This document shows positions 5,483 to 41,294 of a stretch of DNA of 64,000 nucleotides, piece by piece. Both the position numbers and the translations under genes were made by a program. The DNA comes from a virus. Lineage: Duplodnaviria > Caudoviricetes. The notes beneath the pieces were generated by a model. The model made no database searches and was not told the origin of the DNA. It saw nothing but the letters and a program-made list of their open reading frames with translations. Location of the stretch: the IMG/VR virus record IMGVR_UViG_3300049740_002155; one strand, 5' to 3'. Numbering within the stretch: position 1 is the stretch's first letter; every line of letters begins with the position of its first letter.

Positions 5483-5511
5483 TTGACTCACTCACAAAAA
5501 AAATATAAGGT
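5483..5511 (+). promoter_or_regulatory. sigma70-type promoter (prkA operon)
   Basis: TTGACT-17 nt-TAAGGT, 7 nt to ATG 5519. Confidence 0.65.
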
Positions 5512-5518
5512 AATGGTT

Positions 5519-7621
5519 ATGGAAAATAAAAAACGACAAAAAGAAAACAAAGAAGACACTCAAAAGCATCTCGCATCGTTAATTACGGCTGATAACAATG
5601 ATGCGGTAAGCACATATGAGTCTTTAAATTGGACAGGTACATTTTGGGATTATGTAGAAATGTTGGAACAAAATCCAAGTATTGCAAAAAATTCGTATCA
5701 AAGACTTTACGACATGGTTATGTCACATGGTGTAGAAGAATTTACTTATTGTAAACGTAAACACATTAAGTATAAGTTTTTCGAGGGTCTTGGGGACATT
5801 TCTATTTATGGTCTTGAAGAAAATTTGATGGAATTTATGGATATTCTTAAAAGTGCAAGTAGACACTATGGACCAGAACGACGTGTTATTTTATTACACG
5901 GTCCGGTAGGAAGTAGTAAGTCAACTATTGTAACTGCACTTAAAAAGGGTCTTGAGCAATACACACAAACTGAAGAAGGTGCTTTATATTCATTCAGTTG
6001 GAAGGTTTCTGATAAAGATGGAAACGAAGTCATTGTTCCATGCCCAATGAATGAAGAACCTTTGAAACTTTTACCAGACGATGTGCGTAATGAAATTATT
6101 TCTAGATTAAATGCACAACGTAGTGATGATGACTATAAACTTAAATTAGATGGTGCATTGAATCCGGTTAATGAGTTTTACTATAATCAATTAATGGAGA
6201 TGCACGGAGGAGATTACAGAAAGGTACTCGATCATATTGTCGTACGTCGTGTTACTCTTTCAGAAAAGAATCGTGTCGGAATCGGTACTTTCCAGCCGAA
6301 AGACGAAAAGTCACAAGACGCAACCGAGTTAACAGGTGATATTAATTATCGCAAGTTGGCAGAATACGGAAGTGAAAGTGATCCACGTGCATTTGATTTT
6401 GATGGTGAATTTTTAGTATCAAATCGTGGACTCATTGAGTTCCAAGAAATTCTTAAACTTCAAACTGAGTTTTTATATGACTTGTTGGGTGCTACTCAAG
6501 AACACCGTGTTAAACCACGTCGTTTTAATCAAGTACCTATTGATGAAGTTATTCTTGGACACACCAATAATGCTGAGTTTGAAAAGTTAACAAACAATAA
6601 ATTTATGGAAGCACTTCGTGATAGAACTATCAAGATTGACATTCCTTATCTTCTTAAAATTGACGAAGAAAAGAAAATCTATGATCACTTCTACAACACG
6701 GATACTGTAAATAAACACATTGCACCTCATACAACTTATTTGGCTGCATTGTTTGCAGTTGTAAGTCGTTTGGAAGAAAGTTCAAAGCAAGACATGAGCA
6801 TCATTCAAAAAGCAAAACTTTACAATGGTCAAAGTGTACATGGATTCACAGATGAACACGTTAAAGAAATGCAAGAAGAATCTCCAAAAGAAGGATTGTA
6901 TGGTGGAGTATCTGCTCGTTTCGTTCAGAACCAGTTTTCTAATGCAATCGTTAATCCAAGAATGGGTGCTAAGAGTTTGAATCCTTTCATGTTGTTTGCA
7001 CAAATCCGTGAAGGACTTAAAAGTTATAGTGGATTTTCATCGGAAGATGATAAGAAGAACATGATGGAACGGCTTGAATCTGTTGAAAAGGAATACGATA
7101 GAATTGTGAAACGAGAAGTACAACAAGCACTTAGTAGCAGTGAAGAAGCAATAAAAGCACTTTGTACAAATTACATTGATAATATCGTTGCATACATTCA
7201 AGACGAAAAAGTTACCAATCCAGTTACAGGCAAAGAAGAAGTTGCAAATGAACAACTTATGCGTAGTATCGAAGAAAAGATTGGTATTTCCAATGGTATG
7301 AAGGATGACTTCCGTAGAGAAATTATGAACTATATGGGTGGACTTGCCGCCAAGGGTAAAGAATTCAAGTATGATTCAAACGAGCAACTTTACAAAGCAC
7401 TTGAAAAGAAGTTATTTGAAGATACTAAAGATAGCATCAAGTTATCTGCTCTTGCACAAGATACTGCAACCGTAGTTGATAAAGAACTTCTTGAAAAGAT
7501 TGACGCACTTAAGCAACGTCTTATTACATCCTTCGGATATGATGCAGATAGTGCTTCTGATGTTCTTACATATGTAGGTAGTATTTTTGCAAGAGGTGAT
7601 GCAGACGAAGACGAAGATTAA
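5519..7621 (+). CDS. prkA: PrkA/YeaG family AAA+ protein (annotated serine kinase)
   Basis: LLHGPVGSSKST Walker A, CPMNEEPL, GIGTFQPKDEKSQD, NRGLIEFQE, RDRTIKIDIPY; start moved to ATG 5519. Confidence 0.93.
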   Translation: MENKKRQKENKEDTQKHLASLITADNNDAVSTYESLNWTGTFWDYVEMLEQNPSIAKNSYQRLYDMVMSHGVEEFTYCKRKHIKYKFFEGLGDISIYGLEENLMEFMDILKSASRHYGPERRVILLHGPVGSSKSTIVTALKKGLEQYTQTEEGALYSFSWKVSDKDGNEVIVPCPMNEEPLKLLPDDVRNEIISRLNAQRSDDDYKLKLDGALNPVNEFYYNQLMEMHGGDYRKVLDHIVVRRVTLSEKNRVGIGTFQPKDEKSQDATELTGDINYRKLAEYGSESDPRAFDFDGEFLVSNRGLIEFQEILKLQTEFLYDLLGATQEHRVKPRRFNQVPIDEVILGHTNNAEFEKLTNNKFMEALRDRTIKIDIPYLLKIDEEKKIYDHFYNTDTVNKHIAPHTTYLAALFAVVSRLEESSKQDMSIIQKAKLYNGQSVHGFTDEHVKEMQEESPKEGLYGGVSARFVQNQFSNAIVNPRMGAKSLNPFMLFAQIREGLKSYSGFSSEDDKKNMMERLESVEKEYDRIVKREVQQALSSSEEAIKALCTNYIDNIVAYIQDEKVTNPVTGKEEVANEQLMRSIEEKIGISNGMKDDFRREIMNYMGGLAAKGKEFKYDSNEQLYKALEKKLFEDTKDSIKLSALAQDTATVVDKELLEKIDALKQRLITSFGYDADSASDVLTYVGSIFARGDADEDED

Positions 7622-7641
7622 TAGTCAACTGATACATTATT

Positions 7642-8796: not shown

Positions 8797-8799
8797 GTT

Positions 8800-10365
8800 A
8801 TGGGAATTGCATGGGAAGTAGATAGTTTAAACGAAGGAGTATGTCCAGAATTGGCTGCTCTTATACCTGAGTGTTTACAGGCTTGTTATGATAATGGACT
8901 TGATCCATACCCTTTGGTTATTGAAGAATTTGATGCTGACGAAATAGTTGAGATTGCGGCCTATGGTGGTTTTCCTGTTCGTTATCCTCATTTTAATTTC
9001 GGACAACAATTTGAACAACTTCATCATCAGTATCACTCTGGTATGGGTAAGATTTATGAGATGGTTGTAAATACTGATCCGACTTATATGTATCTACAAC
9101 GAAACAATCCTATTGTTGACAATTTAACTGTTGTTGCCCACGCAACTGCACATAGTGATTTCTTTAAGAACAACATTATGTTCAAGCATACGAATCGTAA
9201 TATGATGAATGTCATGGCAAATCATAGTGATAAAATTCGGATGTACATGGACCGTTTTGGTAGAAAGAAAGTAAAAGACTTTTTGAATGCGGCCTTGGCA
9301 ATTGATGATTTAATTGATCCGTCTTTATGCTACCGTGAAAGTAGTTTAAAGAAAGCAACGAAGTTTAATTTTGAAGACCGACAGCCACGTGAACACGTAT
9401 CTCGTCTCGAAACGAAAGAATATATGCAGAAGTATGTCAATCCATCTCATTATATTGAGAGACAAAGAAAAGAACGTGAGGAACGACAAAAGTTGGCAGA
9501 AAATAAATTTCCATTGAAACCTGAACGAGATATTATGTTGATGATAATTAACCATTGTCGTTTAGAACCTTGGCAACAAAATATTCTCAGCATGATTCGT
9601 GATGAGTCTATTTATTATCGTCCACAGGGAATGACAAAAGTTCTCAACGAAGGATGGGCAAGTTATTGGGATTCGTATATAATGGCAACTTGCAACTTTG
9701 CTGGTGATGACGGAATATTTGATTACGCAAAACATCACGCAGGAGTTCTTGGTGGAAAATACAACATGAACAATCCATATAAACTTGGAAATACTTTATT
9801 GCGTGATATTGAAGACCGTTGGAACAAAGGTAAGTTTGGTAAGGAATATGAAAATTGCGACAATGGGGATGAAAAAAGATATTGGAATAAGCATCTCAAT
9901 CTTGGTCGTGAAAAAATATATGAAGTTCGTGAGATGTATAATGATGTTACTTTCTTAAACGAATTTTTTACAAAAGAGTTTTGTGAAAAACATGAATACT
10001 TTGAGTATGCTTTAGATAAGTCAACAAACAAGTATGTTGTAGTAAGCAAAGACTACAAAAAAATAAAAGAGAAACTTGTTAATCGTCATGTTAATATGGG
10101 AAGACCTGTAATTTATATGGAGAATATGAAATATCAAAATACAGAAATCCTACTAAGACATGATTTTGAAGGTCGTCCACTTGATTTAAAATACGCAACC
10201 GGTACTATGGCATATCTGCATGAAATTATCAAGAAACCAATCAACCTTTTAACTTATGATGTTGAAACTGAGGGTTATGGTGAGAATAAAGAGACAATAG
10301 AAGTTGAAGTTCGTTATCGTTACAATAACGGTGAACTCAAACGATACGAAGGAAGCAAGATATAA
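8800..10365 (+). CDS. spoVR: SpoVR/YcgB family protein
   Basis: AYGGFPVRYPH, IYEMVVN, HATAHSDFFKNN, TKVLNEGWASYW, NPYKLG. Confidence 0.93.
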   Translation: MGIAWEVDSLNEGVCPELAALIPECLQACYDNGLDPYPLVIEEFDADEIVEIAAYGGFPVRYPHFNFGQQFEQLHHQYHSGMGKIYEMVVNTDPTYMYLQRNNPIVDNLTVVAHATAHSDFFKNNIMFKHTNRNMMNVMANHSDKIRMYMDRFGRKKVKDFLNAALAIDDLIDPSLCYRESSLKKATKFNFEDRQPREHVSRLETKEYMQKYVNPSHYIERQRKEREERQKLAENKFPLKPERDIMLMIINHCRLEPWQQNILSMIRDESIYYRPQGMTKVLNEGWASYWDSYIMATCNFAGDDGIFDYAKHHAGVLGGKYNMNNPYKLGNTLLRDIEDRWNKGKFGKEYENCDNGDEKRYWNKHLNLGREKIYEVREMYNDVTFLNEFFTKEFCEKHEYFEYALDKSTNKYVVVSKDYKKIKEKLVNRHVNMGRPVIYMENMKYQNTEILLRHDFEGRPLDLKYATGTMAYLHEIIKKPINLLTYDVETEGYGENKETIEVEVRYRYNNGELKRYEGSKI

Positions 10366-18785: not shown

Positions 18786-19814
18786 ATGAATTCAAGCAAG
18801 ATTTTCGCAATCGTGGCCTTTATGGCAATCTCCGTCAATGTTATTTTCGGAGCACCAAATCACAAACAATTAAGGGAAGTTGCGGATCACTTGCAAGATG
18901 TATCGGTTACAATAAAAGCAAAAGCACGATATAGTAGTTCAGAAGGTTCTGGTGCAATGATTATCCGTGAAGTTGACGGAAAAAAAGTTACATTTGTTTG
19001 GACGGCTGCTCATGTTGTAGATAATCTTCGTAAAGTTCGTAGTGTCATTGAAGGTGGTGCTCCTGTAAAGATCGTTGAATTTGATGATGCATCAATTGTA
19101 AAAGAACTTGTGGAAAAAGGTCGTAGAGTTGGTGAAATGAAAATGGATGCTAAGATCATCAAGTATTCAAATGCTGACGATGGACACGATTTGGCACTTC
19201 TTATGGTTCGTGCAAAAGACTACGCAAAAGACGGAGTTGATTTTTATCTCAAAGAAGATAACGACAGAATAATTCCAATTGGAACTGATTTATTCCACGT
19301 TGGTTCATTGCTTGGTCAAATGGGTGCTAATTCAATGACAACTGGAATTATTTCACAAGTCGGAAGAACTCTTGATAAATTTGAATACGATCAAACAACC
19401 GTTACTGCTTTTCCAGGAAGTTCTGGAGGTGGAGTTTATTTGCAAAACGGACAATATGTAGGAATGATTGTTCGTGGTGCAGGTGAAGGATTTAATTTGA
19501 TGGTCCCTGTACGAAGAATGATTCGTTGGGCAGAAAAGAATGACATTATGTGGGCAATTGATCCTAAAGTTGAAATGCCACCTATGGACGAAATTCTAAG
19601 TATGCAAATTGAAGACACCGGAGTCATTCGCAAGAATGATGACGAAGACGAAGACGAGTATAGCATAAAGTCTGCGTTTCCATATAGAATTAAAACTGAG
19701 TATAAATTTGACAATAAATTATTAAATGGATTTGATAAATCTGAAGAGTTTGGAAAAGAATTAAAGATTATGCCATTTGATGGAATGAGTCCTTACAAGA
19801 TTGAGCATAGATAA
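18786..19814 (+). CDS. Exported trypsin-like (S1) serine protease
   Basis: N-terminal signal peptide; triad motifs TAAHV, HDLAL, GSSGGG. Confidence 0.88.
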   Translation: MNSSKIFAIVAFMAISVNVIFGAPNHKQLREVADHLQDVSVTIKAKARYSSSEGSGAMIIREVDGKKVTFVWTAAHVVDNLRKVRSVIEGGAPVKIVEFDDASIVKELVEKGRRVGEMKMDAKIIKYSNADDGHDLALLMVRAKDYAKDGVDFYLKEDNDRIIPIGTDLFHVGSLLGQMGANSMTTGIISQVGRTLDKFEYDQTTVTAFPGSSGGGVYLQNGQYVGMIVRGAGEGFNLMVPVRRMIRWAEKNDIMWAIDPKVEMPPMDEILSMQIEDTGVIRKNDDEDEDEYSIKSAFPYRIKTEYKFDNKLLNGFDKSEEFGKELKIMPFDGMSPYKIEHR

Positions 19815-22067: not shown

Positions 22068-22469
22068 ATGGATCAAACGGAAAAAATAACAGAACCTTCA
22101 GACGAAAAAAGGTTTCTAAAGTTTTTACCTACAAATCCTTTGAAACATTTAAAACTGCTTATAGTTGTTTTATTGCATTGGGCAGTTGTGATTGGTAATT
22201 TTTGTGCATTCTTTATTTTAGCATTTCAAGGATTTACTCCCTATGGATTTCCGTGGTATGTATGTTTGCCATTATGTTCTTTTATTGCTTTAATTTCATT
22301 TTCGAGAGTTCTGGATTGCCCAATGACTCGGTATGAAAATAAAATGAGAGTGAAACTTGGAAAACCAACAATCAAAGGATTCATAGGTCATTATTTTCTG
22401 AAACCGTATGTTCGTAGAAAAGTGAGAAAAGCAAGAGAGAAACGAGAAGCATCGGGAAAAACAAAATGA
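22068..22469 (+). CDS. Membrane protein, DUF2784-like
   Basis: Two TM segments, H in the first helix, CPMTRYENKMR. Confidence 0.5.
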   Translation: MDQTEKITEPSDEKRFLKFLPTNPLKHLKLLIVVLLHWAVVIGNFCAFFILAFQGFTPYGFPWYVCLPLCSFIALISFSRVLDCPMTRYENKMRVKLGKPTIKGFIGHYFLKPYVRRKVRKAREKREASGKTK

Positions 22470-25084: not shown

Positions 25085-25085
25085 T

Positions 25086-27161: not shown

Positions 27162-27163
27162 CA

Positions 27164-29014: not shown

Positions 29015-30366
29015 TGCATACGGTTCTTGAGTTTTTCAAGATTGGAATAGGTCCTTCTAGTTCTCATACTATTGGACCTATTTCTGCGTCACGAAAGTTT
29101 GTTTCTTTTTTGAAGCATAAAAAAGTGTTTGGTGAAATTGATTCTATTAAAGTTGAATTATTCGGTTCACTTGCATTAACAGGTGAAGGTCACGGAACAC
29201 CAATTGCAATCAAACTAGGATTGTTAAATTATGCTCCTGATGAAGTAAAACAGAAACAATTGATTGAAGTTGATTCTCTTGGTAATGAAATAAAAATTGG
29301 GGGAATTCGAAATATAAAATTCAATGATGATGATATTATTTTTAACAAAAAGAAAAAACTTCCGTATCATCCAAATGGAATGAAATTTTATGCTTATGTA
29401 AAAAACAAAGAAGTTGCAACACGAATTTATTATAGTATAGGTGGTGGGTTTGTTGTTACCGAGGAAAATGCAAAAAAAGACAAACTAAAATCAAGCAAAC
29501 GTAAACTGACTAATTCATTTAAAACTGCGACTGAATTATTTACAATTGCAGATAATCGTAATTTAAGAATTTCAGATATAATGCTTGAAAATGAAAAATG
29601 CTTTAGAAAAGAAAAAACTACCAAAAAAGAACTTCGCAGAATTTTCAGAATTATGCAAGAATGTGTTGATCGTGGATTAACTACCGATGGTATGTTGCCT
29701 GGTAAAATAAACGTTGAACGAAGAGCAGCCATAATGTATGAAAACTTTTTGAAAAACAGCGAATTAGATTCTCAAGCATTTCTTGATTACGCAAGTATTT
29801 GTGCAATTGCAGTCAACGAAGAAAATGCCAATATGAATCGTGTTGTAACTGCTCCTACTAATGGGGCATCTGGCATTATACCTGCAACGATGATGTATAT
29901 TAAAGAGTATGTCCACGAAAAATCAGAAGATTGGGACATTAGATTTCTGCTTACTGCGGGAGCAATTGCGATGTTGTATAAAATGAACGCAAGCATTTCA
30001 GGAGCAGAAGTTGGTTGTCAAGGTGAAATTGGAGTTGCGTGTAGTATGGCAGCTGGTGCTTTAACTGAAATTGTAGGAGGAACTTTAAAGCAAGTAGAAA
30101 ATGCGGCCGAAATTGCTATGGAGCATAATCTAGGATTAACGTGTGATCCGGTTGCTGGACTTGTACAAATACCTTGCATAGAACGAAATGCAATAGGAGT
30201 TGGTAAAGCAATTAATGCAAGTCGTATGGCAATGCTTAATGAAAAGAATACAAAAATTTCATTGGATGATGTAATAAAAACAATGAAAGCAACTGGTGCT
30301 GATATGAAAAGCAAATACAAAGAAACAAGTAAAGGTGGTTTAGCAGTAAATGTAACTGAGTGTTAA
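29014..30366 (+). CDS. sdaA: Fe-S L-serine ammonia-lyase (single chain)
   Basis: [66 protein letters not shown]. Confidence 0.95.
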
Positions 30367-32908: not shown

Positions 32909-33496
32909 ATGGAAACAATTAATACAGATGTAAAAAACAAATGGTATACACTCAAAGTATTATCTAATTTTGAAGATAGAGTTAAGAATCTTATTGAGAA
33001 GAAGTTAGAAAATGAACCAGAGTGTAGTAAATTTTTTCACGAAGTTCTTATGCCCTCAGAGATTGTAACCTCTGTTGTAAAAGGTAAGAAAAAAGCAAGA
33101 GTCCGAAAGTTATACCCTGGCTACTTGTTTGTTCGTATGGACATTTATGATGAAAATGAACCAACTCAATTAAACCCACTTGCGTATTATTTTATTACTT
33201 CTATTAATGGCATCACAGGATTTATTGGTGGAAAATCACCTGTTAGATTAAGACAAGATGAAATTGATACAATCAAGTTACACGTAGAGAAGTTTCAAAA
33301 TAAAGAGACTCCAAAGTCTTACTATGAAATTGGTCAAAATGTATCTATACTTGATGGACCTTTTGTTGGACTGCAAGGTTCTGTTGGTGAAGTTAATATT
33401 GAAAACCAAAAATTGAAAGTGCTTGTGAGCATTTTCGGACGTGAAACACCAGTTGAATTAGAAAATTGGCAAGTAGAAAAAGTTGAAGAAGAGTAA
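32909..33496 (+). CDS. nusG: Transcription elongation factor NusG
   Basis: [23 protein letters not shown] domain [20 protein letters not shown]. Confidence 0.95.
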
Positions 33497-33497: not shown

Positions 33498-33722
33498 ATG
33501 GAATTTGATGATTATTTTAAAAAGATGTGTGGTGTACCCGAAGATACTCCATCACAAACTTTTAAGATAGATAATAACAATACTCCTTTCAATAAAAAAG
33601 AACTTAGATGGCTAAAAGACCAATTAGAGAGTTGCATTGAGTGGGATGATCCAAAACGGTCAACCAAACAAATGTACAAAAATATGCTTAAAAAAGTAGA
33701 AGAAAGATTACAATTATTATGA
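33498..33722 (+). CDS. Hypothetical protein
   Basis: ORF between nusG and DUF1338; start at ATG 33498. Confidence 0.55.
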   Translation: MEFDDYFKKMCGVPEDTPSQTFKIDNNNTPFNKKELRWLKDQLESCIEWDDPKRSTKQMYKNMLKKVEERLQLL

Positions 33723-34513
33723 ATATACACAAATTATTTGATGATATGTGGGATTTATATGCAAGAATAAATCCACAAGTCGTTAAGGTTAAAGAACTAA
33801 TAGAAAAGCGAGAAGGCAGACCTGTAAAAAATGACCATATAGCACTTAGAACTTTTAATCACCCCAGAATCAATCGCAAAGTGCTTGCACAATCCTTCTT
33901 AAATAGTGGGTATATAGAAGTTGAAGATTTAAAGTTTGAAAAGAAAAAATTAGATGCAACTTATTTTACTCACACCGATGATAGTTTGACACGTGTTTTT
34001 ATTAGTGAGTTGAGATTAGAAGAATTTTCTCAAGAACTACAAGATACAATAAATCGTTTAGTGGATGAACTTCCAAACAAAGTAATAGAACAATTTGATT
34101 TCTGTAATTATGGAACTCCTTGGAGTATGATAACAGAAGATACATATAATTTTCTAAAAGAAGAAAGTGAATATGCGGCTTGGGTTGCCACTTTCGGATT
34201 TATCGTAAACCATTTTACAATCAGCATAAATGATTGTGATACATTTGAAAATTTAGAGCAAGTTAACTCATTTTTAAAGGAAAATGGATATAGAGTAAAC
34301 GACTCTGGTGGAGAAATAAAAGGTTCAGTTGAACAGGAACTTGAGCAATCAAGTATAATGGCAGAAAATGTATTAGTTGAATTTGATGCACTTGAATATA
34401 AACCTGTTGAGATACCTGGATGTTATTATGAATTTGCATTGCGTCATAATAATTTCGATGGATTTATTGCAGGTTCTGCTGACAAAATTTTTGAAAGTAC
34501 GGATAATAAGTAA
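33719..34513 (+). CDS. DUF1338 family (HglS-like fold) protein, short ast-associated type
   Basis: NDHIALRTF, FISEL, NHFTISIN, IKGS...LEQSS, YYEFA.R. Confidence 0.85.
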   Translation: MNIHKLFDDMWDLYARINPQVVKVKELIEKREGRPVKNDHIALRTFNHPRINRKVLAQSFLNSGYIEVEDLKFEKKKLDATYFTHTDDSLTRVFISELRLEEFSQELQDTINRLVDELPNKVIEQFDFCNYGTPWSMITEDTYNFLKEESEYAAWVATFGFIVNHFTISINDCDTFENLEQVNSFLKENGYRVNDSGGEIKGSVEQELEQSSIMAENVLVEFDALEYKPVEIPGCYYEFALRHNNFDGFIAGSADKIFESTDNK

Positions 34514-35883
34514 TGGCACTTAGCAAGAATGAAATAAATGATAAATTCAAGAATGCTAAAATAGGTTTTGATACTTGGAGAAAAACCACATTACAACATC
34601 GTAAAAGTATTCTTAGAAAATACAAAAAGTTATTAGAAGCAAATGTTGATGTAATTGCTGAAATAATTTCAAAAGAACATGGAAAACCATTATGGGATGC
34701 TAAGTCTGAAGTGGGTGCAATGGTAGGAAAAATTGATGTAACATTTGAATCTTACAATGACAGATTAAACGCAATACGATCAGTTCATGCTGATATGAGT
34801 ATTCAGGCAAGATTCAAACCATTTGGTGTATTTGCAGTTATCGGTCCTTTTAATTTCCCTGGACATTTGCCAAATGGTCATATTGTTCCATTGCTACTTG
34901 CGGGTAATTCAGTTGTATTTAAACCAAGTCATTTAACACCTGAAACTGGAAGAAAAATGGTTGAGTTGCTACACGGTGCAGGTGTACCAAAAGATGTTGT
35001 AACATTATGCGAAGGAAGTGGTCAAGATATAATTGATAATCCTTTATTGGATGGAGTATTTTTTACAGGAAGTACAAAAGTTGGTCATAGTATTTACAAA
35101 AACTTGAGTGATTACCCTGAGAAGATTGTCGCACTGGAAATGGGTGGAAACAATGCAACAATTTTAGAGGAAGCAGGTGGAATAAACACTGCAACAAACA
35201 TTTTGTTGCAATCTGCTTTTATATCAACGGGTCAAAGATGTACTTGCACACGTCGTTTGATTATGAATAAAGGTAAAACTGCGTGTGAAGGTGACCGTAT
35301 CCTTAGAGGTTTAATTGATGCGTGTAATAAAATGGTGATAGGAAACTACACAGATGATCCAGAACCTTTTATGGGACCAATGATTACAACAAATGCAGTT
35401 AAAACTATACTTGATGCTCAAAAGCATTTGGTTAGTCTTGGTGGAATCATATTAAAAGAATTTAAGCAAATAGGTGGTGTAACAAGCAAGTTAGTGGAAC
35501 CTGGTATCATTGATGTTACAAATATCAAAAATCTTCCTGACGAAGAATATTTTGGACCACTTCTTCAGATTATACGAAGCAACAACTTTGATCATGCAAT
35601 CGAAATTGCGAACGATACAAAATACGGATTAGTTTCTGGCGTTATCACGAAAAACAAAGACTTGTTTTGGAAAGCAGAATCTGAACTAAAAACAGGAATA
35701 GTCAATTGGAATCGTCCTACTACAGGATGTGCCAGTGTTGTTCCTTTCGGTGGAATGGGTTGGAGTGGTTGCAATCGTCCAAGTGGTTATACAACTATTG
35801 AGCATTGCGGCCACCCAACTGCACTACACTTGACTGAAGTACCAGAACTTCCGAGCAAGTTGTTGCCTGGATTAAATTTATGA
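34513..35883 (+). CDS. astD: Succinylglutamate semialdehyde dehydrogenase
   Basis: GPFNFPGHLPNGHIVP, FKPS, FTGS, ALEMGGNN, GQRCTC, EEYFGP, NWNRPTTG, PFGG. Confidence 0.9.
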   Translation: MALSKNEINDKFKNAKIGFDTWRKTTLQHRKSILRKYKKLLEANVDVIAEIISKEHGKPLWDAKSEVGAMVGKIDVTFESYNDRLNAIRSVHADMSIQARFKPFGVFAVIGPFNFPGHLPNGHIVPLLLAGNSVVFKPSHLTPETGRKMVELLHGAGVPKDVVTLCEGSGQDIIDNPLLDGVFFTGSTKVGHSIYKNLSDYPEKIVALEMGGNNATILEEAGGINTATNILLQSAFISTGQRCTCTRRLIMNKGKTACEGDRILRGLIDACNKMVIGNYTDDPEPFMGPMITTNAVKTILDAQKHLVSLGGIILKEFKQIGGVTSKLVEPGIIDVTNIKNLPDEEYFGPLLQIIRSNNFDHAIEIANDTKYGLVSGVITKNKDLFWKAESELKTGIVNWNRPTTGCASVVPFGGMGWSGCNRPSGYTTIEHCGHPTALHLTEVPELPSKLLPGLNL

Positions 35884-37067
35884 AGTTTTTAAATATTATT
35901 GATGATCGGTTTGATGAATTATTGAACCGACTTGAAATGCTATCAAACATCAATACACACACCTATAATTTACTTGGATTAGATTCTTGTATTTATCCTC
36001 TTGAAAAAATGTTTAAGGAATTAGAACCTGACGAACATAAACAAATAGAATTAAATGCAGTTCCGTTCATAGATTTTGATGGAGAGCAAAAAGATCAAAG
36101 ATACGGAAGAATTCTTCGTTTGCGTAAAAGACAAAATGCAGAAACAAAAATTTTATTGTGTGGGCATTATGATACCGTGTATCCCAAAGACCACGATTTT
36201 CAGAAGGTAACAATAGACGGAAACAAAATGATGGGTCCTGGTGTACTTGATATGAAAGGTGGTTTAATGACGATGTTGTATGCTTTACTTGCATACGAAA
36301 ATAGTGATATTAAAAATAAAGTCGGTTGGGAGGTATTAATTTTACCAGATGAAGAAGTTGGAAGTATTGCATCATCTTCTTATTTAGGAACTTCCGCAAA
36401 AAACAGTGATATTGGATTGTTGTATGAACCTGCGTTACCTGACGGAAGCATCGTCAAATCACGCAAAGGAGTAGGAAGTTATACAATGGTATTCCGAGGA
36501 GTATCTGCACACGCAGGTCGTTGCTTTAACGATGGATTAAACGCATTTTACGGAGTATCTGATTTTATTAATTGGTCAAATAATATGATGGAAATCAATA
36601 AAGACTTAATTATCAATCTTGGTAAAGTAGAAGGAGGAGGACCAAATAATGTTGTACCTGATTTGGCAATCGCAAGATTCAATGCAAGAGTGTCCACGAA
36701 AAAACAAAGAACCGAGTTTGAACATCAGTTAGAAATCTTTAATCGTAGAATGCGAAAAAAATATCCTGGTACAGAACTTCACGGAAAATTTACAAGTCCT
36801 CCGAAACCTTATTCTGCAAAAGCAAAACAAATTGTAGATGGTTTGCAGAAGTGTGCGAAGCAACTGAATATGCCAAAAATAAAATTGGTTGCAACTGGTG
36901 GAGCAAGTGACGGAAATAAATTAAATGGATTTGGATTGCCTAACATTGATTCACTAGGTCCTATCGGAGATGGAATGCATAGTCGTGATGAGTATGTGCT
37001 TATAGATTCAATAAAACAACGAACAAAGTTATCTGCGTTATATTTATATAATATAACAAAGGAGTAA
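35880..37067 (+). CDS. M20 family metallohydrolase (candidate succinylglutamate desuccinylase, AstE role)
   Basis: GHYDTV, GPGVLDMKGG, DEEVGS, YEP, AHAG, GGASDGN; embedded in the ast cluster. Confidence 0.85.
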   Translation: MKFLNIIDDRFDELLNRLEMLSNINTHTYNLLGLDSCIYPLEKMFKELEPDEHKQIELNAVPFIDFDGEQKDQRYGRILRLRKRQNAETKILLCGHYDTVYPKDHDFQKVTIDGNKMMGPGVLDMKGGLMTMLYALLAYENSDIKNKVGWEVLILPDEEVGSIASSSYLGTSAKNSDIGLLYEPALPDGSIVKSRKGVGSYTMVFRGVSAHAGRCFNDGLNAFYGVSDFINWSNNMMEINKDLIINLGKVEGGGPNNVVPDLAIARFNARVSTKKQRTEFEHQLEIFNRRMRKKYPGTELHGKFTSPPKPYSAKAKQIVDGLQKCAKQLNMPKIKLVATGGASDGNKLNGFGLPNIDSLGPIGDGMHSRDEYVLIDSIKQRTKLSALYLYNITKE

Positions 37068-37071: not shown

Positions 37072-38427
37072 ATGTGGTACAACGATTTTTTTACAGACAA
37101 AACAACAAATGATGCAAAACAAATTTTATTAAAAGAATATACTAAGTCCGTAAAAAAACTAAAACACACACCACCAACTGCACCCAAAGAAATCACCGAA
37201 GAACTACTAGAACGATTTAAAAATGTTCGTGGTGGTGGGTTGGTATTTCCATATGTAGGAACTGGTAAAGGATATGGATGTTTAACTGAACTCACAGATG
37301 GTTCTGTAAAATATGATATGATTGGTGGCATCGGAGTAAATTATTTTGGACACGGAGATGAAAAAATTGTAGAAGCAACTTTGAATTCTGCATTTAGTGA
37401 TTGTGTAATGCAAGGTAATCTTCAACAAAACGAAGAATCTTTGGTGGTGATGGAAAAGTTTAAACGAGTTGCAAATTTACACGGAGCAAATCTTGATCAT
37501 GTATTTTTAACAACAAGTGGAGCAATGGCAGTTGAAAACGGAATCAAGATGGCATTTCAAAAAAAGTTTCCTGCTGATCGTATTCTTGCATTTGCAAATT
37601 GTTTTCACGGAAGAACAACAGGTGTTTCACAAATCACAGATAAACCATTTTATCGTGAAGGATTGCCTGATACACTTAAAGTTGATTATATCCCGTTCAA
37701 TGCAGAATCGGCAGTAAAGCATCTTGAAAAGCATATAGCAAGACATCCTGGTAAACATTCATGTATGGTCGCAGAACTTATTCAAGGAGAAGGTGGGTTC
37801 AATGTGGGAGATAAAAAGATTCTTCAAGATATTGCAAAATGTCTTAAAAAACACGATATACTTTTCTTTGTAGATGAAGTACAAAGTTTTGCACGAACAT
37901 ATAAACCATTTGCATTTCAAATGTTTGAATTGGATGAATATGTTGATTTGGTTTGCGTAGGAAAAAGTACACAAGTATGTGCAACGATTTTCAAAGAAGA
38001 GGTTAAACCAAGACCAGGATTAGTTTCACAAACTTTTACAGGAGCAACTTCCTCATTGTTTGCGGCCGATGTAGTTTTGTCGGAAATTCTTAAAGGTAAG
38101 TTTTATGATACCGACAAAAAGCATGGAACTAACCATGAGTATTTTGATTATCTGAAAAAAGAATTAAGTGACTGCAAGCATATTTCTAATATCGGTGGGA
38201 TCGGAGCAATGTTTGCATTTCAAGTATTTGATGGAACTCCTGATGTAACAATGAAAGTGGTTCATAAACTTTTTGAGAACGGAGTAATCTCTTTTATAGC
38301 AGGAAAAAATCCAACGAAAGTTCGTTTTCTTCTTCCGACACCAGTGATAAGCAAAAAAGATTTAAAGGCAGTTATTAAAATTACCAAGGATACCTTGAAA
38401 AATTATGATAGTTCGTCAGATAAATGA
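37072..38427 (+). CDS. astC: Class III PLP aminotransferase (succinylornithine aminotransferase role)
   Basis: DMIGGIGV..GH, SGAMAVE, FHGRT, ELIQGEGG, DEVQ, GK; between M20 and astA. The substrate assignment rests on context. Confidence 0.75.
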   Translation: MWYNDFFTDKTTNDAKQILLKEYTKSVKKLKHTPPTAPKEITEELLERFKNVRGGGLVFPYVGTGKGYGCLTELTDGSVKYDMIGGIGVNYFGHGDEKIVEATLNSAFSDCVMQGNLQQNEESLVVMEKFKRVANLHGANLDHVFLTTSGAMAVENGIKMAFQKKFPADRILAFANCFHGRTTGVSQITDKPFYREGLPDTLKVDYIPFNAESAVKHLEKHIARHPGKHSCMVAELIQGEGGFNVGDKKILQDIAKCLKKHDILFFVDEVQSFARTYKPFAFQMFELDEYVDLVCVGKSTQVCATIFKEEVKPRPGLVSQTFTGATSSLFAADVVLSEILKGKFYDTDKKHGTNHEYFDYLKKELSDCKHISNIGGIGAMFAFQVFDGTPDVTMKVVHKLFENGVISFIAGKNPTKVRFLLPTPVISKKDLKAVIKITKDTLKNYDSSSDK

Positions 38428-39397
38428 AAATGATCTAAACGGATTATTGAATCTTGCCAAAAAAGCAGGTACAGGAATAACAACTTTACAAAACGATAAA
38501 GTCTTATTGCAAAAAAGACTTGAGCATACACTTTACTCGTTCAATAAAACTGTTGATAATCCAGAAGGTGAAAGTTATTTGTTTGTAATGGAAAACAACA
38601 ATGAGTTGGTAGGTATATGTGGTATCATCAGCAAAGTTGGTGGATTTGAACCTTTCTACACATATGTCACAGATACCGAAGTACATGAAAATAAAGAACT
38701 TAAAATCAAAACATCAAACGAAGTTTTGCGTTTAGATAAAAAGCATTCTGGTCCTACTGAAATCGGAACTTTATATTTGCTTCCAAAAGCAAGAAAAGGA
38801 AACGGAAAGTTGCTTAGTTATTCACGATTTCTTTTTATGGCGGAATATCTTGATCGTTTTGAAAAAGAAGTAATCGCAGAAATGCGTGGTGTGGTTACTA
38901 CAAGAGGTCATAGTCCTTTTTACGAGTATTGCATGAAACACTTTCTTAAAATAGATTATACCAATGCAGATTATCTTAGTATGAAGAACAAGCAGTTCAT
39001 AGAAGACCTCATGCCGAATCATCCTATTTACATAAATCTTCTTCCAAAGCACGTTCGTGATGTTCTTGGTCAAGTCCACAAAAATACAGAACCTGCGATG
39101 GGAATGTTGAAAAAGCAGAACTTCGAGTTCAACGGAGAAATAGATATTTTTGAAGCAGGACCGACTTATTCTTGTGAAACTAAAAACATTAAAAGTATTT
39201 CTCAAAGTAAAGTAGGAAAATACGTAGGTGATTTCGTGGAAGACCCGAAGGATACACTTATTGCGACATACGAACCTTTTCGTTGTTGTCGTGGAAAAGC
39301 AGAGTATTGGAACAATGGAGAAATACAAATAAACAAAGAATCGGTCAAAAAACTTGGTCTAAAAATAAACGATAAAATTCGTGTATATTTTCTTTAG
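38405..39397 (+). CDS. astA: Arginine N-succinyltransferase
   Basis: GITTL, EPFY, TEIGTLYL, GKLLS..RFLF, IAEMRG, SPF, PIY..LLP, GQVH..T.PA, IDIFEAGP. Confidence 0.93.
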   Translation: MIVRQINENDLNGLLNLAKKAGTGITTLQNDKVLLQKRLEHTLYSFNKTVDNPEGESYLFVMENNNELVGICGIISKVGGFEPFYTYVTDTEVHENKELKIKTSNEVLRLDKKHSGPTEIGTLYLLPKARKGNGKLLSYSRFLFMAEYLDRFEKEVIAEMRGVVTTRGHSPFYEYCMKHFLKIDYTNADYLSMKNKQFIEDLMPNHPIYINLLPKHVRDVLGQVHKNTEPAMGMLKKQNFEFNGEIDIFEAGPTYSCETKNIKSISQSKVGKYVGDFVEDPKDTLIATYEPFRCCRGKAEYWNNGEIQINKESVKKLGLKINDKIRVYFL

Positions 39398-39690: not shown

Positions 39691-39698
39691 ATATTTAT
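39691..39698 (+). promoter_or_regulatory. ATATTTAT motif (candidate late promoter)
   Basis: 4 nt upstream of ATG 39703. Confidence 0.5.
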
Positions 39699-39702
39699 TG
39701 AT

Positions 39703-40011
39703 ATGGGAAAAAAGTATAATAGTTTCGATGAATACTATGAGTTTTATTTGAGCAAGCATAAAAACCCACTTAATCGTTTTCTTCATCTTCTTGGTAATAT
39801 TGCCACAATAACATTTGTTGTAAGTGTATTCAAGTTTGATTTAAGTTTATGGTGGCTGTTGCTTACTCCATTCGTAGTTTATCCATTGGCTGCATTGGGA
39901 CATTTCATTTGCGAAGGAAATATGCCTGCGTTTTTATCAGGTAATCCTATTTACGCAAAAATGAGTGATTGGAAAATGCTTTATCAATGGTTGACTGGTA
40001 AACTCAAGTAA
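39703..40011 (+). CDS. DUF962 / Mpo1-like membrane protein
   Basis: YEFYLSKHKNP.NR.LHLLG, GHFICEGN.PA, SDW.M. Confidence 0.85.
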   Translation: MGKKYNSFDEYYEFYLSKHKNPLNRFLHLLGNIATITFVVSVFKFDLSLWWLLLTPFVVYPLAALGHFICEGNMPAFLSGNPIYAKMSDWKMLYQWLTGKLK

Positions 40012-40025
40012 TCTATAATAATATC

Positions 40026-41294
40026 ATGTCGTTTGAAGTGAATTTTGATGGGTTGGTCGGTCCAACTCATAATTACGCAGGTTTGTCCCACGGAAATGTT
40101 CACTCGGTAAACAATAAAAACAAACCGAGCAATCCTAGACGGGCTGCACTTCAAGGTTTAGATAAAATGAAGTTGATGTATGATCTTGGATACAAACAAT
40201 GTATTATACCACCACAAGAACGACCTTTAATCAACGATTATGACGATTATTGTAACATGGCAATCAATGCTTCTGCGAGCAGTATGTGGGTTGCAAATTC
40301 GTCTACAATAGTACCAAGTTCTGATACAAAAAATAACAAGTTGAATATTTTGACTGCAAATTTAAATTTCACACATCATCGCAGAATTGAAGCACCCCAA
40401 ACTCATATTACTTTAAATAAAATTTTCAACGATACCTCTAAATTTTTAGTTCATTCTCCTTTGAATAGTGACGGAACATTAGATGACGAAGGTGCAGCCA
40501 ATCATACTAGATTTTGCAATTCATATGAAGAAGAAGGATTGCACTTTTTTGTATATGGTCGTTCAAACGACTCATCGGAGATTCGTCCGATCAACTATCC
40601 TGCAAGACAAACTTACGAAGCATCCAAAAAAGTTGCGGAAAATATGCAAGTCAATAACGCAGTATTTGCACAACAATCTGCGGAAAGTATTGATGCGGGT
40701 GTATTTCACCATGATGTTATTGGTGTGGGTAACAAGAATTTATATTTTTATCACGAAAAGGCACTAGCAGAAGAAGCAGAAACAATTGCAAAGTTACAAG
40801 ATGCGTTTGTTGGTAAATTAAATTTTTTGTGCGTAAAGGAATCTGAAGTTCCGATGGATGTGGCAGTTGAGACATATCTATTTAATAGTCAACTAGTTGA
40901 ATATGAAAATGGACATATGCTAATAGCACCCATAAGATGTCGTAGAAACTCATTGGTAAGAAAATACTTACAAAGTATTACAGGTAAACATAAACTGATT
41001 AAAAAGGTACGGTATGTTAATTTAGAGCAAAGTTTATGGAACGGTGGTGGTCCTGCTTGCTTGAGATTGAGGGTGGTGATGAATAAGTCTGAGTTTTCTG
41101 CTTTGCATCCTGGTATAATTTTTGATGATAGATTATACACAAGACTGCGTAAATGGATTAAAAAATATTATGTAGGAAATTTAATTTATGATGATCTATT
41201 TACACCAAGTTTTATTCAACGAGGTCGAGACGCATTATTTGAACTTACGAATATTCTTGGGTTGGGTTATATATACCCACTTCAGTTGAAATAA
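40026..41294 (+). CDS. astB: N-succinylarginine dihydrolase
   Basis: EVNFDGLVGPTHNYAGLS.GN, ALQGL.KM, PPQERP, ASSMW.AN, DEGAANH, VFH.DVI, NGGGPACLRLRV. Confidence 0.95.
   Translation: MSFEVNFDGLVGPTHNYAGLSHGNVHSVNNKNKPSNPRRAALQGLDKMKLMYDLGYKQCIIPPQERPLINDYDDYCNMAINASASSMWVANSSTIVPSSDTKNNKLNILTANLNFTHHRRIEAPQTHITLNKIFNDTSKFLVHSPLNSDGTLDDEGAANHTRFCNSYEEEGLHFFVYGRSNDSSEIRPINYPARQTYEASKKVAENMQVNNAVFAQQSAESIDAGVFHHDVIGVGNKNLYFYHEKALAEEAETIAKLQDAFVGKLNFLCVKESEVPMDVAVETYLFNSQLVEYENGHMLIAPIRCRRNSLVRKYLQSITGKHKLIKKVRYVNLEQSLWNGGGPACLRLRVVMNKSEFSALHPGIIFDDRLYTRLRKWIKKYYVGNLIYDDLFTPSFIQRGRDALFELTNILGLGYIYPLQLK

What the first reader, a model, noticed from the sequence alone, without database searches (positions are those of the whole stretch)
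5483..41294. Convergent theme: a phage 'starvation-override' toolkit (AST + PrkA triad + beta-oxidation + serine deamination + porin)
Seen: independent host-derived modules in one ~36-kb stretch. Established: in E. coli both astCADBE and yeaGH belong to the nitrogen-starvation (NtrC/RpoS) response, and fad genes and SdaA release acetyl-CoA, pyruvate and ammonia. Inference: these are not random auxiliary genes but a coordinated system for replicating in nutrient-starved cells by catabolising amino acids and lipids, with succinyl-CoA/succinate linking AST to the TCA flux fed by beta-oxidation. The regulon link is borrowed from E. coli and may not hold in the real host.
Basis: inference. Interest (0 to 1): 0.72.

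Follow-up and report, generated by a model that had tools for sequence, protein, structure and literature searches.

The report
Jumbo-phage suite of catabolic host genes
A widespread marine T4-like jumbo phage has kept several bacterial gene sets intact for a long time (a PrkA stress/protease trio, fat burning, serine and arginine breakdown), but they came from different sources and nothing yet shows they work as one "starvation override" system.

Summary
The genes are real. PrkA-YeaH-SpoVR lies at 5483-10365. Thiolase-FadB-ACAD is fused to SdaA at 23840-30366. A seven-gene AST-like cluster lies at 33719-41294. AstE is missing from that cluster; an M20 hydrolase sits in its place. The "porin" is a small outer-membrane barrel at 41548-42234, just outside the stated range.

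Relatives on the same contigs carry T4-type gp23, gp32 and UvsX, so this is a phage. Every close relative whose contig spans the region keeps all the modules in the same order. This includes one 191,803-bp contig with FadB at 67% and AstB at 75% identity. dN/dS is 0.03-0.25, similar to the replication genes.

The modules have different origins. The fad operon copies the gene order of Verrucomicrobiota. PrkA is nearest to Myxococcota and Planctomycetota. AstB has no close donor (49% at best). The trio occurs alone in many other phages; this scan has already noted it in at least 62 other genomes. The sister clade lacks all modules in the contigs searched.

AstB and PrkA are rare in Verrucomicrobiota (8 and 3 of 301 genomes), so the E. 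coli NtrC argument does not carry over. I found no regulatory signal specific to the toolkit.

Verdict: a co-inherited, functional catabolic gene suite. Coordination and a link to starvation remain untested.

The parts
5483..7621 (+). PrkA/YeaG-type AAA+ protein (called a 'serine kinase'; shown to be an ATP-dependent protease in B. subtilis). Relatives are annotated as starting about 10 codons later.
   Evidence: Pfam AAA_PrkA 2e-85 and PrkA 1e-70. Phage homologues are 73-94% identical, then there is a gap to 56-57% in Myxococcota/Planctomycetota. dN/dS 0.045-0.055. Protease activity: PMC9512850.
7642..8796 (+). YeaH/YhbH (DUF444, vWA-type) partner of PrkA
   Evidence: Pfam DUF444 8e-67. Adjacent to PrkA in all 32 IMG/VR contigs wherever the contig extends that far. 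dN/dS 0.04-0.07.
8800..10365 (+). SpoVR/YcgB, third member of the trio
   Evidence: Pfam SpoVR 1e-107. Conserved synteny. dN/dS 0.05.
18786..19814 (+). Exported trypsin-like serine protease.
   Evidence: Pfam Trypsin_2 4e-11. N-terminal signal sequence visible in the translation. Conserved in relatives including L108.
22068..23545 (+). DUF2784 membrane protein plus Ldh_2-family NAD(P)-dependent dehydrogenase. The two genes overlap and are preceded by an ATATTTAT motif.
   Evidence: Pfam Ldh_2 6e-102. NCBIfam best hit is L-sulfolactate dehydrogenase at 263 bits, below its 500 cut-off. Conserved upstream of the fad operon. Motif at 22055.
23840..29014 (+). Beta-oxidation core operon: thiolase (23840-25084), FadB/J multifunctional enzyme (25086-27161) and 616-aa acyl-CoA dehydrogenase (27164-29014), with 1-2 nt between genes
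   Evidence: Pfam and NCBIfam. The same gene order occurs in Verrucomicrobiota: thiolase upstream in 70 of 80 loci and ACAD downstream in 49 of 80, at 45-63% identity. More than 110 phage-type FadB clusters lie at 66-100% identity, then there is a gap to about 52%. dN/dS 0.10-0.18.
29014..30366 (+). SdaA, iron-sulfur L-serine dehydratase (alpha and beta domains). It overlaps the ACAD stop codon by 1 nt.
   Evidence: Pfam SDH_alpha 1e-86 and SDH_beta 8e-48. Follows ACAD in every relative but in none of 80 bacterial fad loci. dN/dS 0.10-0.13.
32909..33496 (+). Phage NusG-like factor; the fixed left neighbour of the AST-like cluster in all relatives
   Evidence: Pfam NusG 7e-19. Synteny.
33719..34513 (+). 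HGLS/DUF1338-family protein (2-oxoadipate dioxygenase/decarboxylase family); first gene of the AST-like cluster, role unknown
   Evidence: Pfam HGLS 2e-27. Conserved at this position in L129, L132, L135, L136 and L234-L236. dN/dS 0.09-0.15.
34513..35883 (+). AstD-type succinylglutamate-semialdehyde dehydrogenase
   Evidence: NF006992, 531 bits against a cut-off of 514. dN/dS 0.09.
35880..37067 (+). M20 metallohydrolase (ArgE/DapE relative) at the position where AstE would be expected; a candidate N-succinylglutamate desuccinylase (inference)
   Evidence: NF005602, 407 bits against a cut-off of 357, and DapE/ArgE subfamily hits. No PF04952 in five related contigs. Conserved between astD and astC in all relatives.
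37072..38427 (+). Divergent class-III aminotransferase (AstC/ArgD-like)
   Evidence: Pfam Aminotran_3 2.5e-48. Best NCBIfam hits are the acetylornithine/succinylornithine transaminase family, but all fall below their cut-offs.
38405..39397 (+). AstA, arginine N-succinyltransferase
   Evidence: Pfam AstA 4e-109. TIGR03243, 313 against 284.
39703..40011 (+). Mpo1-like/DUF962 small membrane protein, preceded by ATATTTAT 4 nt before its ATG
   Evidence: Pfam Mpo1-like 2e-23. Always directly upstream of astB in relatives. Motif.
40026..41294 (+). AstB, N-succinylarginine dihydrolase
   Evidence: Pfam AstB 6e-151. NF009789, 512 against 452. About 60 phage-type clusters lie at 67-100% identity, then there is a gap to 49%.
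41548..42234 (+). It is a single-gene unit with its own sigma-70-like site (41521-41548) and a strong terminator-like hairpin (42287-42312).
   Evidence: Signal peptide and C-terminal Phe. Atlas neighbours are viral clusters and TorF/Gcw_chp/KdgM-like porins. Porin_4 E=0.003 only. Promoter and terminator matches. High-depth contigs in RNA libraries.

Best explanation
The 36-kb stretch is the replication and nucleotide-metabolism arm of a cosmopolitan marine T4-like jumbo phage. The window's own contig is 263 kb, and the host is probably a member of the Verrucomicrobiota.

Over time this lineage picked up at least four separate bacterial gene cassettes at different sites and has kept them ever since:

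1. The PrkA-YeaH-SpoVR trio, a cassette that moves among many phages.
2. DUF2784-Ldh_2.
3. A thiolase-FadB-ACAD operon taken as a block from a Verrucomicrobiota-type operon. The phage lineage itself joined sdaA to it.
4. A phage-specific seven-gene AST-like cluster, HGLS-AstD-M20-AstC-AstA-Mpo1-AstB, in which an M20 hydrolase stands where AstE would be.

A separately and strongly expressed small outer-membrane barrel follows the cluster.

Each cassette is functional and is packed as its own transcription unit. During infection the phage copies add flux to host catabolism. Fatty acyl-CoA is turned into acetyl-CoA and reducing power. Serine is turned into pyruvate and ammonia. Arginine is turned into glutamate, succinate, ammonia and NADH. 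The trio probably drives ATP-dependent protein turnover.

The phage supplies no acyl-CoA synthetase or ETF, so it boosts host pathways and does not replace them.

What is shown: gene identity, conservation, purifying selection, the separate origins, and presence in RNA libraries. What is inferred: the enzyme activities, the role of M20, the direction of flux, the host, and any benefit under nutrient limitation.
For: - Gene identities.
- Phage nature: gp32, UvsX and DnaB in the window, and gp23 on 4 of 5 related contigs that also carry the trio.
- Trio conserved: all 32 IMG/VR contigs found with PrkA show g04-PrkA-YeaH-SpoVR-MTase-gp32 wherever they extend that far.
- fad and sdaA conserved: every contig that passes nrdB has DUF2784-Ldh2-thiolase-FadB-ACAD-SdaA-MTase-SAP-NusG (L123-L127).
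- AST cluster conserved: every contig that passes NusG has the AST-like cluster (G005, L129, L132, L135/L136, L234-L236).
- All on one contig: a single 191,803-bp contig (L234) carries Ldh2 through AstB. It overlaps at 99.9% identity a contig that carries the PrkA trio.
- Selection: dN/dS is 0.03-0.25 for all module genes, against 0.06-0.09 for gp32, UvsX and NrdA.
- Separate origins: the fad gene order and nearest homologues lie in Verrucomicrobiota. PrkA is nearest to Myxococcota and Planctomycetota at 56%. AstB reaches at most 49% to any cellular sequence. The bacterial AstB loci inspected do not show the phage cluster layout.
- Dependence on the host: no AstE, AMP-binding synthetase or ETF was found in five related contigs.
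- RNA: contigs from RNA libraries of four studies lie on fad, sdaA and AST genes at 88-99% identity.
Against: - No enzyme activity, host or infection phenotype is known.
- The Verrucomicrobial host rests on 45-63% identities and on gene order, not on a direct link.
- The RNA libraries are held as contigs and may contain DNA, so transcription is not formally shown.
- The AstC-like aminotransferase falls below every NCBIfam cut-off, and AstE is absent, so the cluster may not run the textbook AST pathway.
- In relatives, sugar- and sulfate-transfer genes are inserted between the AST genes. This could point to a non-catabolic role.
- Complete co-inheritance of all the cassettes is also what a single coordinated system would produce.
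Confidence: 0.6

Rival explanations
1. One reading: the modules form one interdependent system, selected as a unit for replication in nutrient-starved cells. The PrkA trio and the exported protease would release amino acids. AST and SdaA would strip their nitrogen and pass carbon to the TCA cycle. Beta-oxidation would supply acetyl-CoA, and so succinyl-CoA for AstA. The barrel would import substrates.
For: - All modules are fixed together in every sub-lineage of the clade, down to 67% FadB and 75% AstB identity.
- All are absent from four sister-clade contigs that extend 40-55 kb downstream of uvsX.
- sdaA is translationally coupled to the fad operon only in the phage.
- PrkA is an ATP-dependent protease in B. 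subtilis (PMC9512850).
- In E. coli both yeaG and astCADBE respond to nitrogen starvation (PMC4664914, PMC4066584).
- The idea that marine phages trigger starvation-like catabolism, and that they carry fadB, is already in the literature (PMC4053976).
Against: - The trio occurs without AstB, FadB or SdaA in complete phage genomes and in another marine T4-like phage context.
- The presence/absence contrast between the two clades is a single evolutionary event per module.
- The modules have different donors and sit in separate transcription units, split by replication genes, methylases and NusG.
- The only shared motif, ATATTTAT, also precedes unrelated genes.
- AstB and PrkA are rare in the presumed host phylum, so no shared host regulon can be assumed.
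Confidence: 0.2
2. The modules serve unrelated purposes and lie together only because this arm of the genome tolerates insertions. The trio would control host stress or dormancy. The fad genes would remodel or recycle membrane lipid. The AST-like cluster would make or modify a succinylated or amino compound, for example for a surface or DNA decoration, and would not burn arginine.
For: - Relatives carry extra genes inserted inside the AST-like cluster: sulfotransferases, polysaccharide pyruvyl transferases, a Fringe-like glycosyltransferase and NUDIX. They also carry DUF1796 between Ldh2 and the thiolase.
- Identity is mosaic. HGLS to Mpo1 are 95-99% identical to L129, and AstD to Mpo1 are 93-99% identical to L132, while astB next door is only 79-81% identical to both.
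- Many assemblies break at the nrdB/DUF2784 and NusG/HGLS borders.
- AstE is missing, and HGLS and Mpo1 have no place in the textbook pathway.
Against: - AstA, AstB and AstD each pass curated subfamily thresholds for the catabolic enzymes.
- Four or five consecutive pathway steps kept together for this long are most simply read as the pathway itself.
- The inserted genes differ between relatives and so look like passengers.
Confidence: 0.15
3. The stretch is not phage DNA. It would be bacterial sequence, a provirus flank or a chimeric assembly, as IMG/VR's 'provirus' label on some related contigs might suggest.
For: - IMG/VR classes four of five related contigs as provirus.
- The metabolic genes look cellular.
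Against: - The same gene order recurs in dozens of independent assemblies from many samples, with phage replication genes on both sides.
- gp23 lies on the same contigs as the trio.
- Nearly all genes are on one strand, and GC is uniform at 29-37%.
- The phage versions form their own deep clusters, well separated from cellular homologues.
Confidence: 0.03

Closest known systems
Bacterial prkA(yeaG)-yeaH(yhbH)-spoVR(ycgB) module and its phage-borne copies (Thermus phages phiYS40/TMA, Ralstonia phage RsoM2USA)
   Same: Three full-length genes in the canonical order, tightly packed. Both PrkA domains are present. The same trio is annotated in cultured phages (PMC8504454).
   Different: Here it sits between a polymerase-like gene and gp32 in a marine T4-like phage. 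It is only 56% identical to the nearest cellular PrkA. No function has been tested in any phage.
E. coli/Pseudomonas arginine succinyltransferase pathway (astCADBE / aruCFGDBE)
   Same: AstA, AstB and AstD pass curated subfamily thresholds. A class-III aminotransferase occupies the AstC role.
   Different: - AstE is absent and an M20 hydrolase stands in its place.
- HGLS/DUF1338 and Mpo1-like genes are integral, conserved members.
- The gene order differs.
- The nearest cellular AstB is 49% identical, and the bacterial AstB loci inspected do not share the layout.
- No phage AST pathway turned up in GenBank phages or in the papers searched.
Verrucomicrobiota thiolase-FadB-acyl-CoA dehydrogenase operon
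   Same: Same three genes in the same order and orientation, at 45-63% identity. Of 80 bacterial loci, 70 have the thiolase upstream and 49 have the ACAD downstream.
   Different: The phage version carries sdaA fused to its end and DUF2784-Ldh_2 ahead of it. No acyl-CoA synthetase or ETF travels with it.
Virome reports of fadB/fadL and of 'starvation-like' metabolic reprogramming by marine phages (Hurwitz et al. 2013, PMC4053976)
   Same: The same general idea: phage-borne fatty-acid oxidation genes used for energy during infection, and phages pushing hosts towards starvation-type metabolism.
   Different: That work rested on read counts in viromes. Here the complete core operon lies on long phage contigs beside two amino-acid catabolic modules and the PrkA trio. 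The barrel is about 224 aa, too small to be FadL.

Membership tests
Arginine succinyltransferase (AST) pathway | AstA, arginine N-succinyltransferase | tested here: met
   Pfam AstA 4e-109. TIGR03243 gives 313 bits against a cut-off of 284. The AstA equivalog model TIGR03244 gives 311, below its cut-off of 391.
Arginine succinyltransferase (AST) pathway | AstB, N-succinylarginine dihydrolase | tested here: met
   Pfam AstB 6e-151. NF009789 gives 512 bits against a cut-off of 452. The equivalog TIGR03241 gives 479, below its cut-off of 538.
Arginine succinyltransferase (AST) pathway | AstC, succinylornithine transaminase | tested here: inconclusive
   A class-III aminotransferase whose best hits are the acetylornithine/succinylornithine transaminase family. 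All are far below their cut-offs (155 against 410).
Arginine succinyltransferase (AST) pathway | AstD, succinylglutamate-semialdehyde dehydrogenase | tested here: met
   NF006992 gives 531 bits against a cut-off of 514. The equivalog TIGR03240 gives 523, below its cut-off of 579.
Arginine succinyltransferase (AST) pathway | AstE, succinylglutamate desuccinylase (AstE_AspA fold) | tested here: not met
   No PF04952 in the window's scanned ORFs or in five related contigs. An M20 hydrolase (NF005602) occupies the conserved slot. Substitution by M20 is inference only.
PrkA-YeaH-SpoVR module | All three genes, full length and adjacent | tested here: met
   Profile coverage is 2-357 of 358 and 1-255 of 255 for the two PrkA domains, and 7-405 of 407 for SpoVR. 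DUF444 matches in two stretches. Gaps between genes are 20 and 3 nt.
PrkA-YeaH-SpoVR module | Induction by nitrogen starvation or stress through NtrC/RpoS, as in E. coli | not testable with these tools
   No sigma-54 or NtrC analysis was possible. The trio follows phage gene g04 directly, and a general phage motif lies at 5032. PrkA is rare in the presumed host phylum (3 of 301 genomes).
Fatty-acid beta-oxidation cycle | The four core reactions: acyl-CoA dehydrogenase, enoyl-CoA hydratase, 3-hydroxyacyl-CoA dehydrogenase and thiolase | tested here: met
   The ACAD N, M and C domains; ECH_1 plus 3HCDH_N/3HCDH in one 691-aa protein; and Thiolase_N/C. This is domain-level evidence only; no activity was tested.
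Fatty-acid beta-oxidation cycle | Activation (acyl-CoA synthetase) and electron outlet (ETF) | tested here: not met
   No AMP-binding or ETF family match in five related contigs of 80-170 kb, and none among the window ORFs scanned. These functions must come from the host.
General porins / small outer-membrane channels | Signal peptide, an even number of amphipathic beta strands and a C-terminal aromatic residue | tested here: inconclusive
   The signal peptide and terminal Phe are visible. Porin_4 gives E=0.003, below its cut-off. Atlas neighbours are TorF/Gcw_chp/KdgM-like. The AlphaFold model shows 12 strands, but mean pLDDT is only 41.
T4-like (Straboviridae-type) phage | gp23 capsid protein together with gp32, UvsX and a gp41-like helicase | tested here: met
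   gp32, RecA/UvsX and DnaB_C lie in the window. Gp23 (PF07068, 278-290 bits) lies on G001-G004, which carry the same PrkA trio.

The most novel reading that the evidence does not exclude
The cassettes may form one working chain that turns an infected, nutrient-poor cell, probably a Verrucomicrobium, into a self-digesting 'virocell'. The PrkA machine and the exported protease would free amino acids. The phage-built fad-sdaA operon and an AST variant with a new M20 desuccinylase would convert lipid, serine and arginine into energy, ammonia and glutamate for nucleotide synthesis. The phage would thereby give the cell an arginine pathway that most of the host phylum lacks.
Probability: 0.2. Interest if true: 0.8.

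Novelty: new variant of a known kind. Interest (0 to 1): 0.5.

Why it matters
Most known phage auxiliary metabolic genes are single steps in photosynthesis, the pentose-phosphate pathway, nucleotide supply or nutrient uptake. This widespread ocean phage lineage instead carries near-complete catabolic pathways: the beta-oxidation core, serine deamination and an arginine succinyltransferase variant. These sit beside the unexplained PrkA trio, and all are under strong purifying selection.

If they act during infection, viral lysis of these hosts is preceded by phage-driven release of ammonia and burning of lipid. That would matter for marine carbon and nitrogen budgets.

The lineage also offers two concrete biochemical questions. 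Does an M20 hydrolase replace AstE? What do HGLS and Mpo1 do inside an AST cluster? The lineage could also serve as a natural test bed for the function of the PrkA trio.

Tried and rejected
- **IMG/VR scans that found little.** Single-protein scans with AstB and with the 282-aa downstream gene found nothing, or only the one 80-kb relative. Two-sequence alignments gave poor patterns: AstA again found only that relative.
- **Records that could not be scanned.** No whole genome is held for the window. ENA and Logan records cannot be searched by handle. I therefore could not scan the 237,922-bp marine scaffold that carries the trio alone, and could not check directly whether it has AST or fad genes.
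- **Contig-length matching, abandoned.** I tried matching 'longest contig' lengths between the homologue lists as a measure of co-occurrence. It is unreliable. The 191,803-bp contig carries FadB but does not appear in the FadB list.
- **More contigs of the second PrkA clade.** A further IMG/VR scan for this clade returned only short contigs.
- **Promoters.** Sigma-70-like promoter matches are no more frequent than in shuffled sequence: 96 against 89 and 70 against 80. I make no promoter-based case for co-regulation. TATAAATA occurs only once, at 59224.
- **Source of the AST cluster.** The bacterial AstB loci inspected (two of the nearest homologues and three Verrucomicrobiota) show no phage-like cluster. 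No source cluster was identified.
- **Taxon names.** The cluster look-up gave no organism names.
- **Barrel structure.** The AlphaFold model of the barrel has mean pLDDT 41. It was too poor for a fold search, so none was run.
- **Gaps in RNA cover.** Bins without RNA-library cover, such as 32.7-33.3 kb, carry no meaning.
- **Phage-database hits rejected.** AstB, FadB and SdaA hits in the phage database are all in records that are plainly bacterial assemblies or fragments filed as phage. I did not count them as phage occurrences.
- **SdaA origin.** SdaA identity to Verrucomicrobiota (at most 52%) is not clearly above its identity to other bacteria (about 47%), so it says little about origin.

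Full report
**What is there**

The window is AT-rich (GC 29-37%), and almost all its genes lie on the + strand.

- PrkA (5483-7621), YeaH/DUF444 (7642-8796) and SpoVR (8800-10365) are followed by a DNA methylase.
- Next come gp32, a RecA/UvsX-like recombinase, a flap endonuclease, a DnaB-like helicase and NrdA. These are followed by an exported trypsin-like protease, two lipoproteins and NrdB.
- Then DUF2784 and an Ldh_2 dehydrogenase (22068-23545).
- Then thiolase, FadB/J, a 616-aa acyl-CoA dehydrogenase and SdaA (23840-30366). These four are spaced by 1-2 nt, and sdaA overlaps the ACAD stop codon by one base.
- Then a methylase, two small genes and NusG.
- Then HGLS/DUF1338, an AstD-type dehydrogenase, an M20 hydrolase, a class-III aminotransferase, AstA, an Mpo1-like protein and AstB (33719-41294).

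NCBIfam places AstA, AstB and AstD above the curated subfamily thresholds. It leaves the aminotransferase below every threshold.

Two details of the observation need correcting.

- No AstE exists in the window's scanned ORFs or in five related contigs. The M20 hydrolase holds the slot.
- The only porin candidate is a 228-aa signal-peptide barrel at 41548-42234, outside the stated range. Its support is modest: Porin_4 at E=0.003, TorF/KdgM-like neighbours in the protein atlas, and a 12-strand model of low confidence.

**It is a phage, and a common one**

No deposited phage matches at the DNA level. IMG/VR, however, holds hundreds of relatives of the UvsX gene and 32 contigs with a PrkA at 77-96% identity. 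Four of five long related contigs carrying the trio also encode the T4-type capsid protein gp23.

The window's own contig is 263,379 bp. Phage-type AstB and FadB each form dozens to more than a hundred 90%-identity clusters from ENA, JGI, TARA and Logan assemblies. These sit on contigs of up to 570 kb. Each is separated from its cellular homologues by a sharp gap: AstB runs 67-100% and then drops to 49%, and FadB runs 66-100% and then drops to about 52%.

Close relatives (UvsX at 82% or more):

- Every contig that reaches the spot has g04-PrkA-YeaH-SpoVR-methylase-gp32.
- Every contig that passes nrdB has DUF2784-Ldh2-thiolase-FadB-ACAD-SdaA-methylase-SAP-NusG.
- Every contig that passes NusG has the AST-like cluster.
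- One 80-kb contig is collinear with the window across the whole stretch.
- In the most divergent sub-lineage (FadB 67%, SdaA 66%, AstB 75%), one 191,803-bp contig carries Ldh2 through AstB. It overlaps at 99.9% identity a contig that carries the trio.

I saw no exception, so the set is fixed in this clade.

Sister clade (UvsX 60-65%):

- It keeps the g04-gp32-UvsX-FEN-DnaB backbone but has no trio at that site in about 30 loci.
- Four of its contigs extend 40-55 kb downstream of uvsX and hold no AstB, no FadB-type dehydrogenase and no PrkA.

It is, however, one evolutionary contrast and not repeated evidence.

Against the idea, the trio clearly travels alone.

- It sits in a different context (queuosine genes upstream, UvsY nearby) in another marine T4-like phage of about 238 kb.
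- In another contig it lies directly after nrdB (L108).
- It is in complete genomes of Thermus phages and Ralstonia phage RsoM2USA, and in huge uncultured phages (PMC8504454).
- The whole phage database has no genuine AstB, FadB or SdaA. The only hits are bacterial assemblies filed as phage.
- This scan has already recorded the trio in phages of at least 62 other genomes.

**Are the genes in use?**

Pairwise dN/dS against relatives at several distances is 0.04-0.07 for the trio and 0.06-0.25 for the metabolic genes. For gp32, UvsX and NrdA it is 0.06-0.09. Frameshifts in the 80-kb relative also hit NusG and the SAP gene, so they are probably assembly errors.

Contigs from RNA libraries of four different studies lie on parts of the fad, sdaA and AST genes at 88-99% identity. 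The contigs on the barrel gene have far higher word depth: 87-251 in three of the four runs (12 in the fourth), against about 3-11 for the listed fad, sdaA and AST contigs. Even DNA carry-over would not give that difference. The tool warns, however, that contig depth cannot rank genes and that DNA may be present.

The barrel has the best sigma-70-like match in the region directly upstream and a strong terminator-like hairpin downstream, so it is its own unit.

**Where the modules came from**

- **fad operon.** The 80 best bacterial matches to FadB are almost all Verrucomicrobiota (46-51% identity). Thiolase lies directly upstream in 70 of the 80 and the ACAD directly downstream in 49. None has sdaA beside it. 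The fad operon was therefore taken as a block from that kind of genome, and the phage lineage added sdaA.
- **PrkA.** It is nearest to Myxococcota and Planctomycetota at 55-57%. In 301 sampled Verrucomicrobiota it was found in 3 genomes, at no more than 35% identity.
- **AstB.** It reaches only 49% identity to any cellular sequence and was found in 8 of 301 Verrucomicrobiota. The bacterial AstB loci inspected do not share the phage cluster layout.
- **SdaA.** It is common in the phylum (99 of 301 genomes) but at most 52% identical.

The modules therefore have different sources. If the host is a Verrucomicrobium, which is itself an inference, it probably lacks both an AST pathway and a PrkA trio.

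**Regulation**

- Sigma-70-like matches are no more frequent than in shuffled sequence.
- A lead from earlier notes, the motif ATATTTAT, holds up as a start-proximal signal. It has 14 copies on the + strand. Twelve are followed within 37 nt by an ATG that opens an ORF, and seven of those within 7 nt.
- The motif precedes g04 (and so the trio), nrdA, a 33-codon ORF, DUF2784-Ldh2, astC and Mpo1-astB. It does not precede the thiolase, sdaA or HGLS, and it also precedes unrelated genes further right in the window.
- It is therefore a general expression signal of this phage and does not define a toolkit regulon.

**How it most likely works**

Each cassette adds capacity to a host pathway during infection.

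- The fad trio shortens acyl-CoA to acetyl-CoA with FADH2 and NADH.
- SdaA gives pyruvate and ammonia.
- The AST-like cluster gives glutamate, succinate, ammonia, CO2 and NADH from arginine, if M20 does the last step.
- The trio probably acts as an ATP-driven protein-turnover machine (PMC9512850).

No acyl-CoA synthetase or ETF was found in 80-170-kb relatives, so the phage depends on the host for activation and for passing electrons on. A common purpose of feeding replication from the cell's own lipid and protein is a sensible reading. It echoes earlier virome-based proposals (PMC4053976). It remains inference.

**The rival of unrelated roles in an insertion-tolerant arm has real support**

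- Relatives carry sulfotransferase, pyruvyl-transferase, glycosyltransferase and NUDIX genes wedged between the AST genes.
- Identity along the cluster is mosaic.
- Assemblies often break at the module borders.

**Novelty**

The trio in phages and viral fadB are known. I found no report of a phage AST pathway in two full-text searches. I found no genuine AstB, FadB or SdaA in deposited phage genomes.

The combination is a new variant of the known class of auxiliary-metabolic-gene-rich jumbo phages. The claim of a coordinated starvation override is not established.

Noticed in passing
window 5032, 11167, 16165, 20272, 22055, 37040, 39691, 54568, 54588, 55200, 59219, 60055, 61985, 63152 (+ strand): The motif ATATTTAT is strongly strand-biased (14 copies on +, 3 on -). 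Twelve of the 14 are followed by an ATG-initiated ORF within 37 nt, and seven of those sit only 0-7 nt before the ATG. That is too close for a normal leader. It may mark leaderless or near-leaderless transcripts, or a translation signal.
   Followed up: partly
window 41548-42234: In three of four marine RNA libraries, the contigs covering this small outer-membrane barrel gene have 10-40 times the word depth of those on the neighbouring fad and AST genes. The gene has its own strong promoter-like and terminator-like sites. It may be one of the most highly expressed genes of this phage.
   Followed up: partly
L129 2525-8367; L132 4683-9650; L135 8105-9650; L234 732-1355: Relatives carry different extra genes wedged between the conserved AST genes: sulfotransferases, polysaccharide pyruvyl transferases, a Fringe-like glycosyltransferase, NUDIX and a 361-aa unknown. 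DUF1796 lies between Ldh2 and the thiolase. The cluster is a hot spot for insertions.
   Followed up: no
window 33719-41294 compared with L129 and L132: Identity is mosaic. HGLS to Mpo1 are 95-99% identical to L129, and AstD to Mpo1 are 93-99% identical to L132 (its HGLS is only 77%). The adjacent astB is only 79-81% identical to both. This points to a recombination break between Mpo1 and astB.
   Followed up: partly
window 42640-42760: A tRNA-like sequence lies between the barrel gene's terminator and the next ORF. It was seen in the intergenic sequence print-out, and a terminator-like hit on the minus strand lies inside it. It was not run through a tRNA finder.
   Followed up: no
window 18786-20761: An exported trypsin-like protease and two lipoproteins sit between nrdA and nrdB and are conserved in relatives, including the distant L108. 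An exported phage protease could belong to the same nutrient-release theme.
   Followed up: no
ENA contigs behind L129 (569,543 bp) and L132 (528,892 bp): Long-read contigs about twice the size of the window's 263-kb contig carry the same syntenic block. They may be concatemers or truly larger genomes. This was not resolved.
   Followed up: no
related loci L129, L132, L135 downstream of DUF2201 gene; window 45347-48180: A MoxR-like AAA protein (522 aa, no Pfam hit) and a DUF2201 metallopeptidase/vWA-like protein form a conserved pair. In relatives a ribosomal protein bS21 gene follows them.
   Followed up: no
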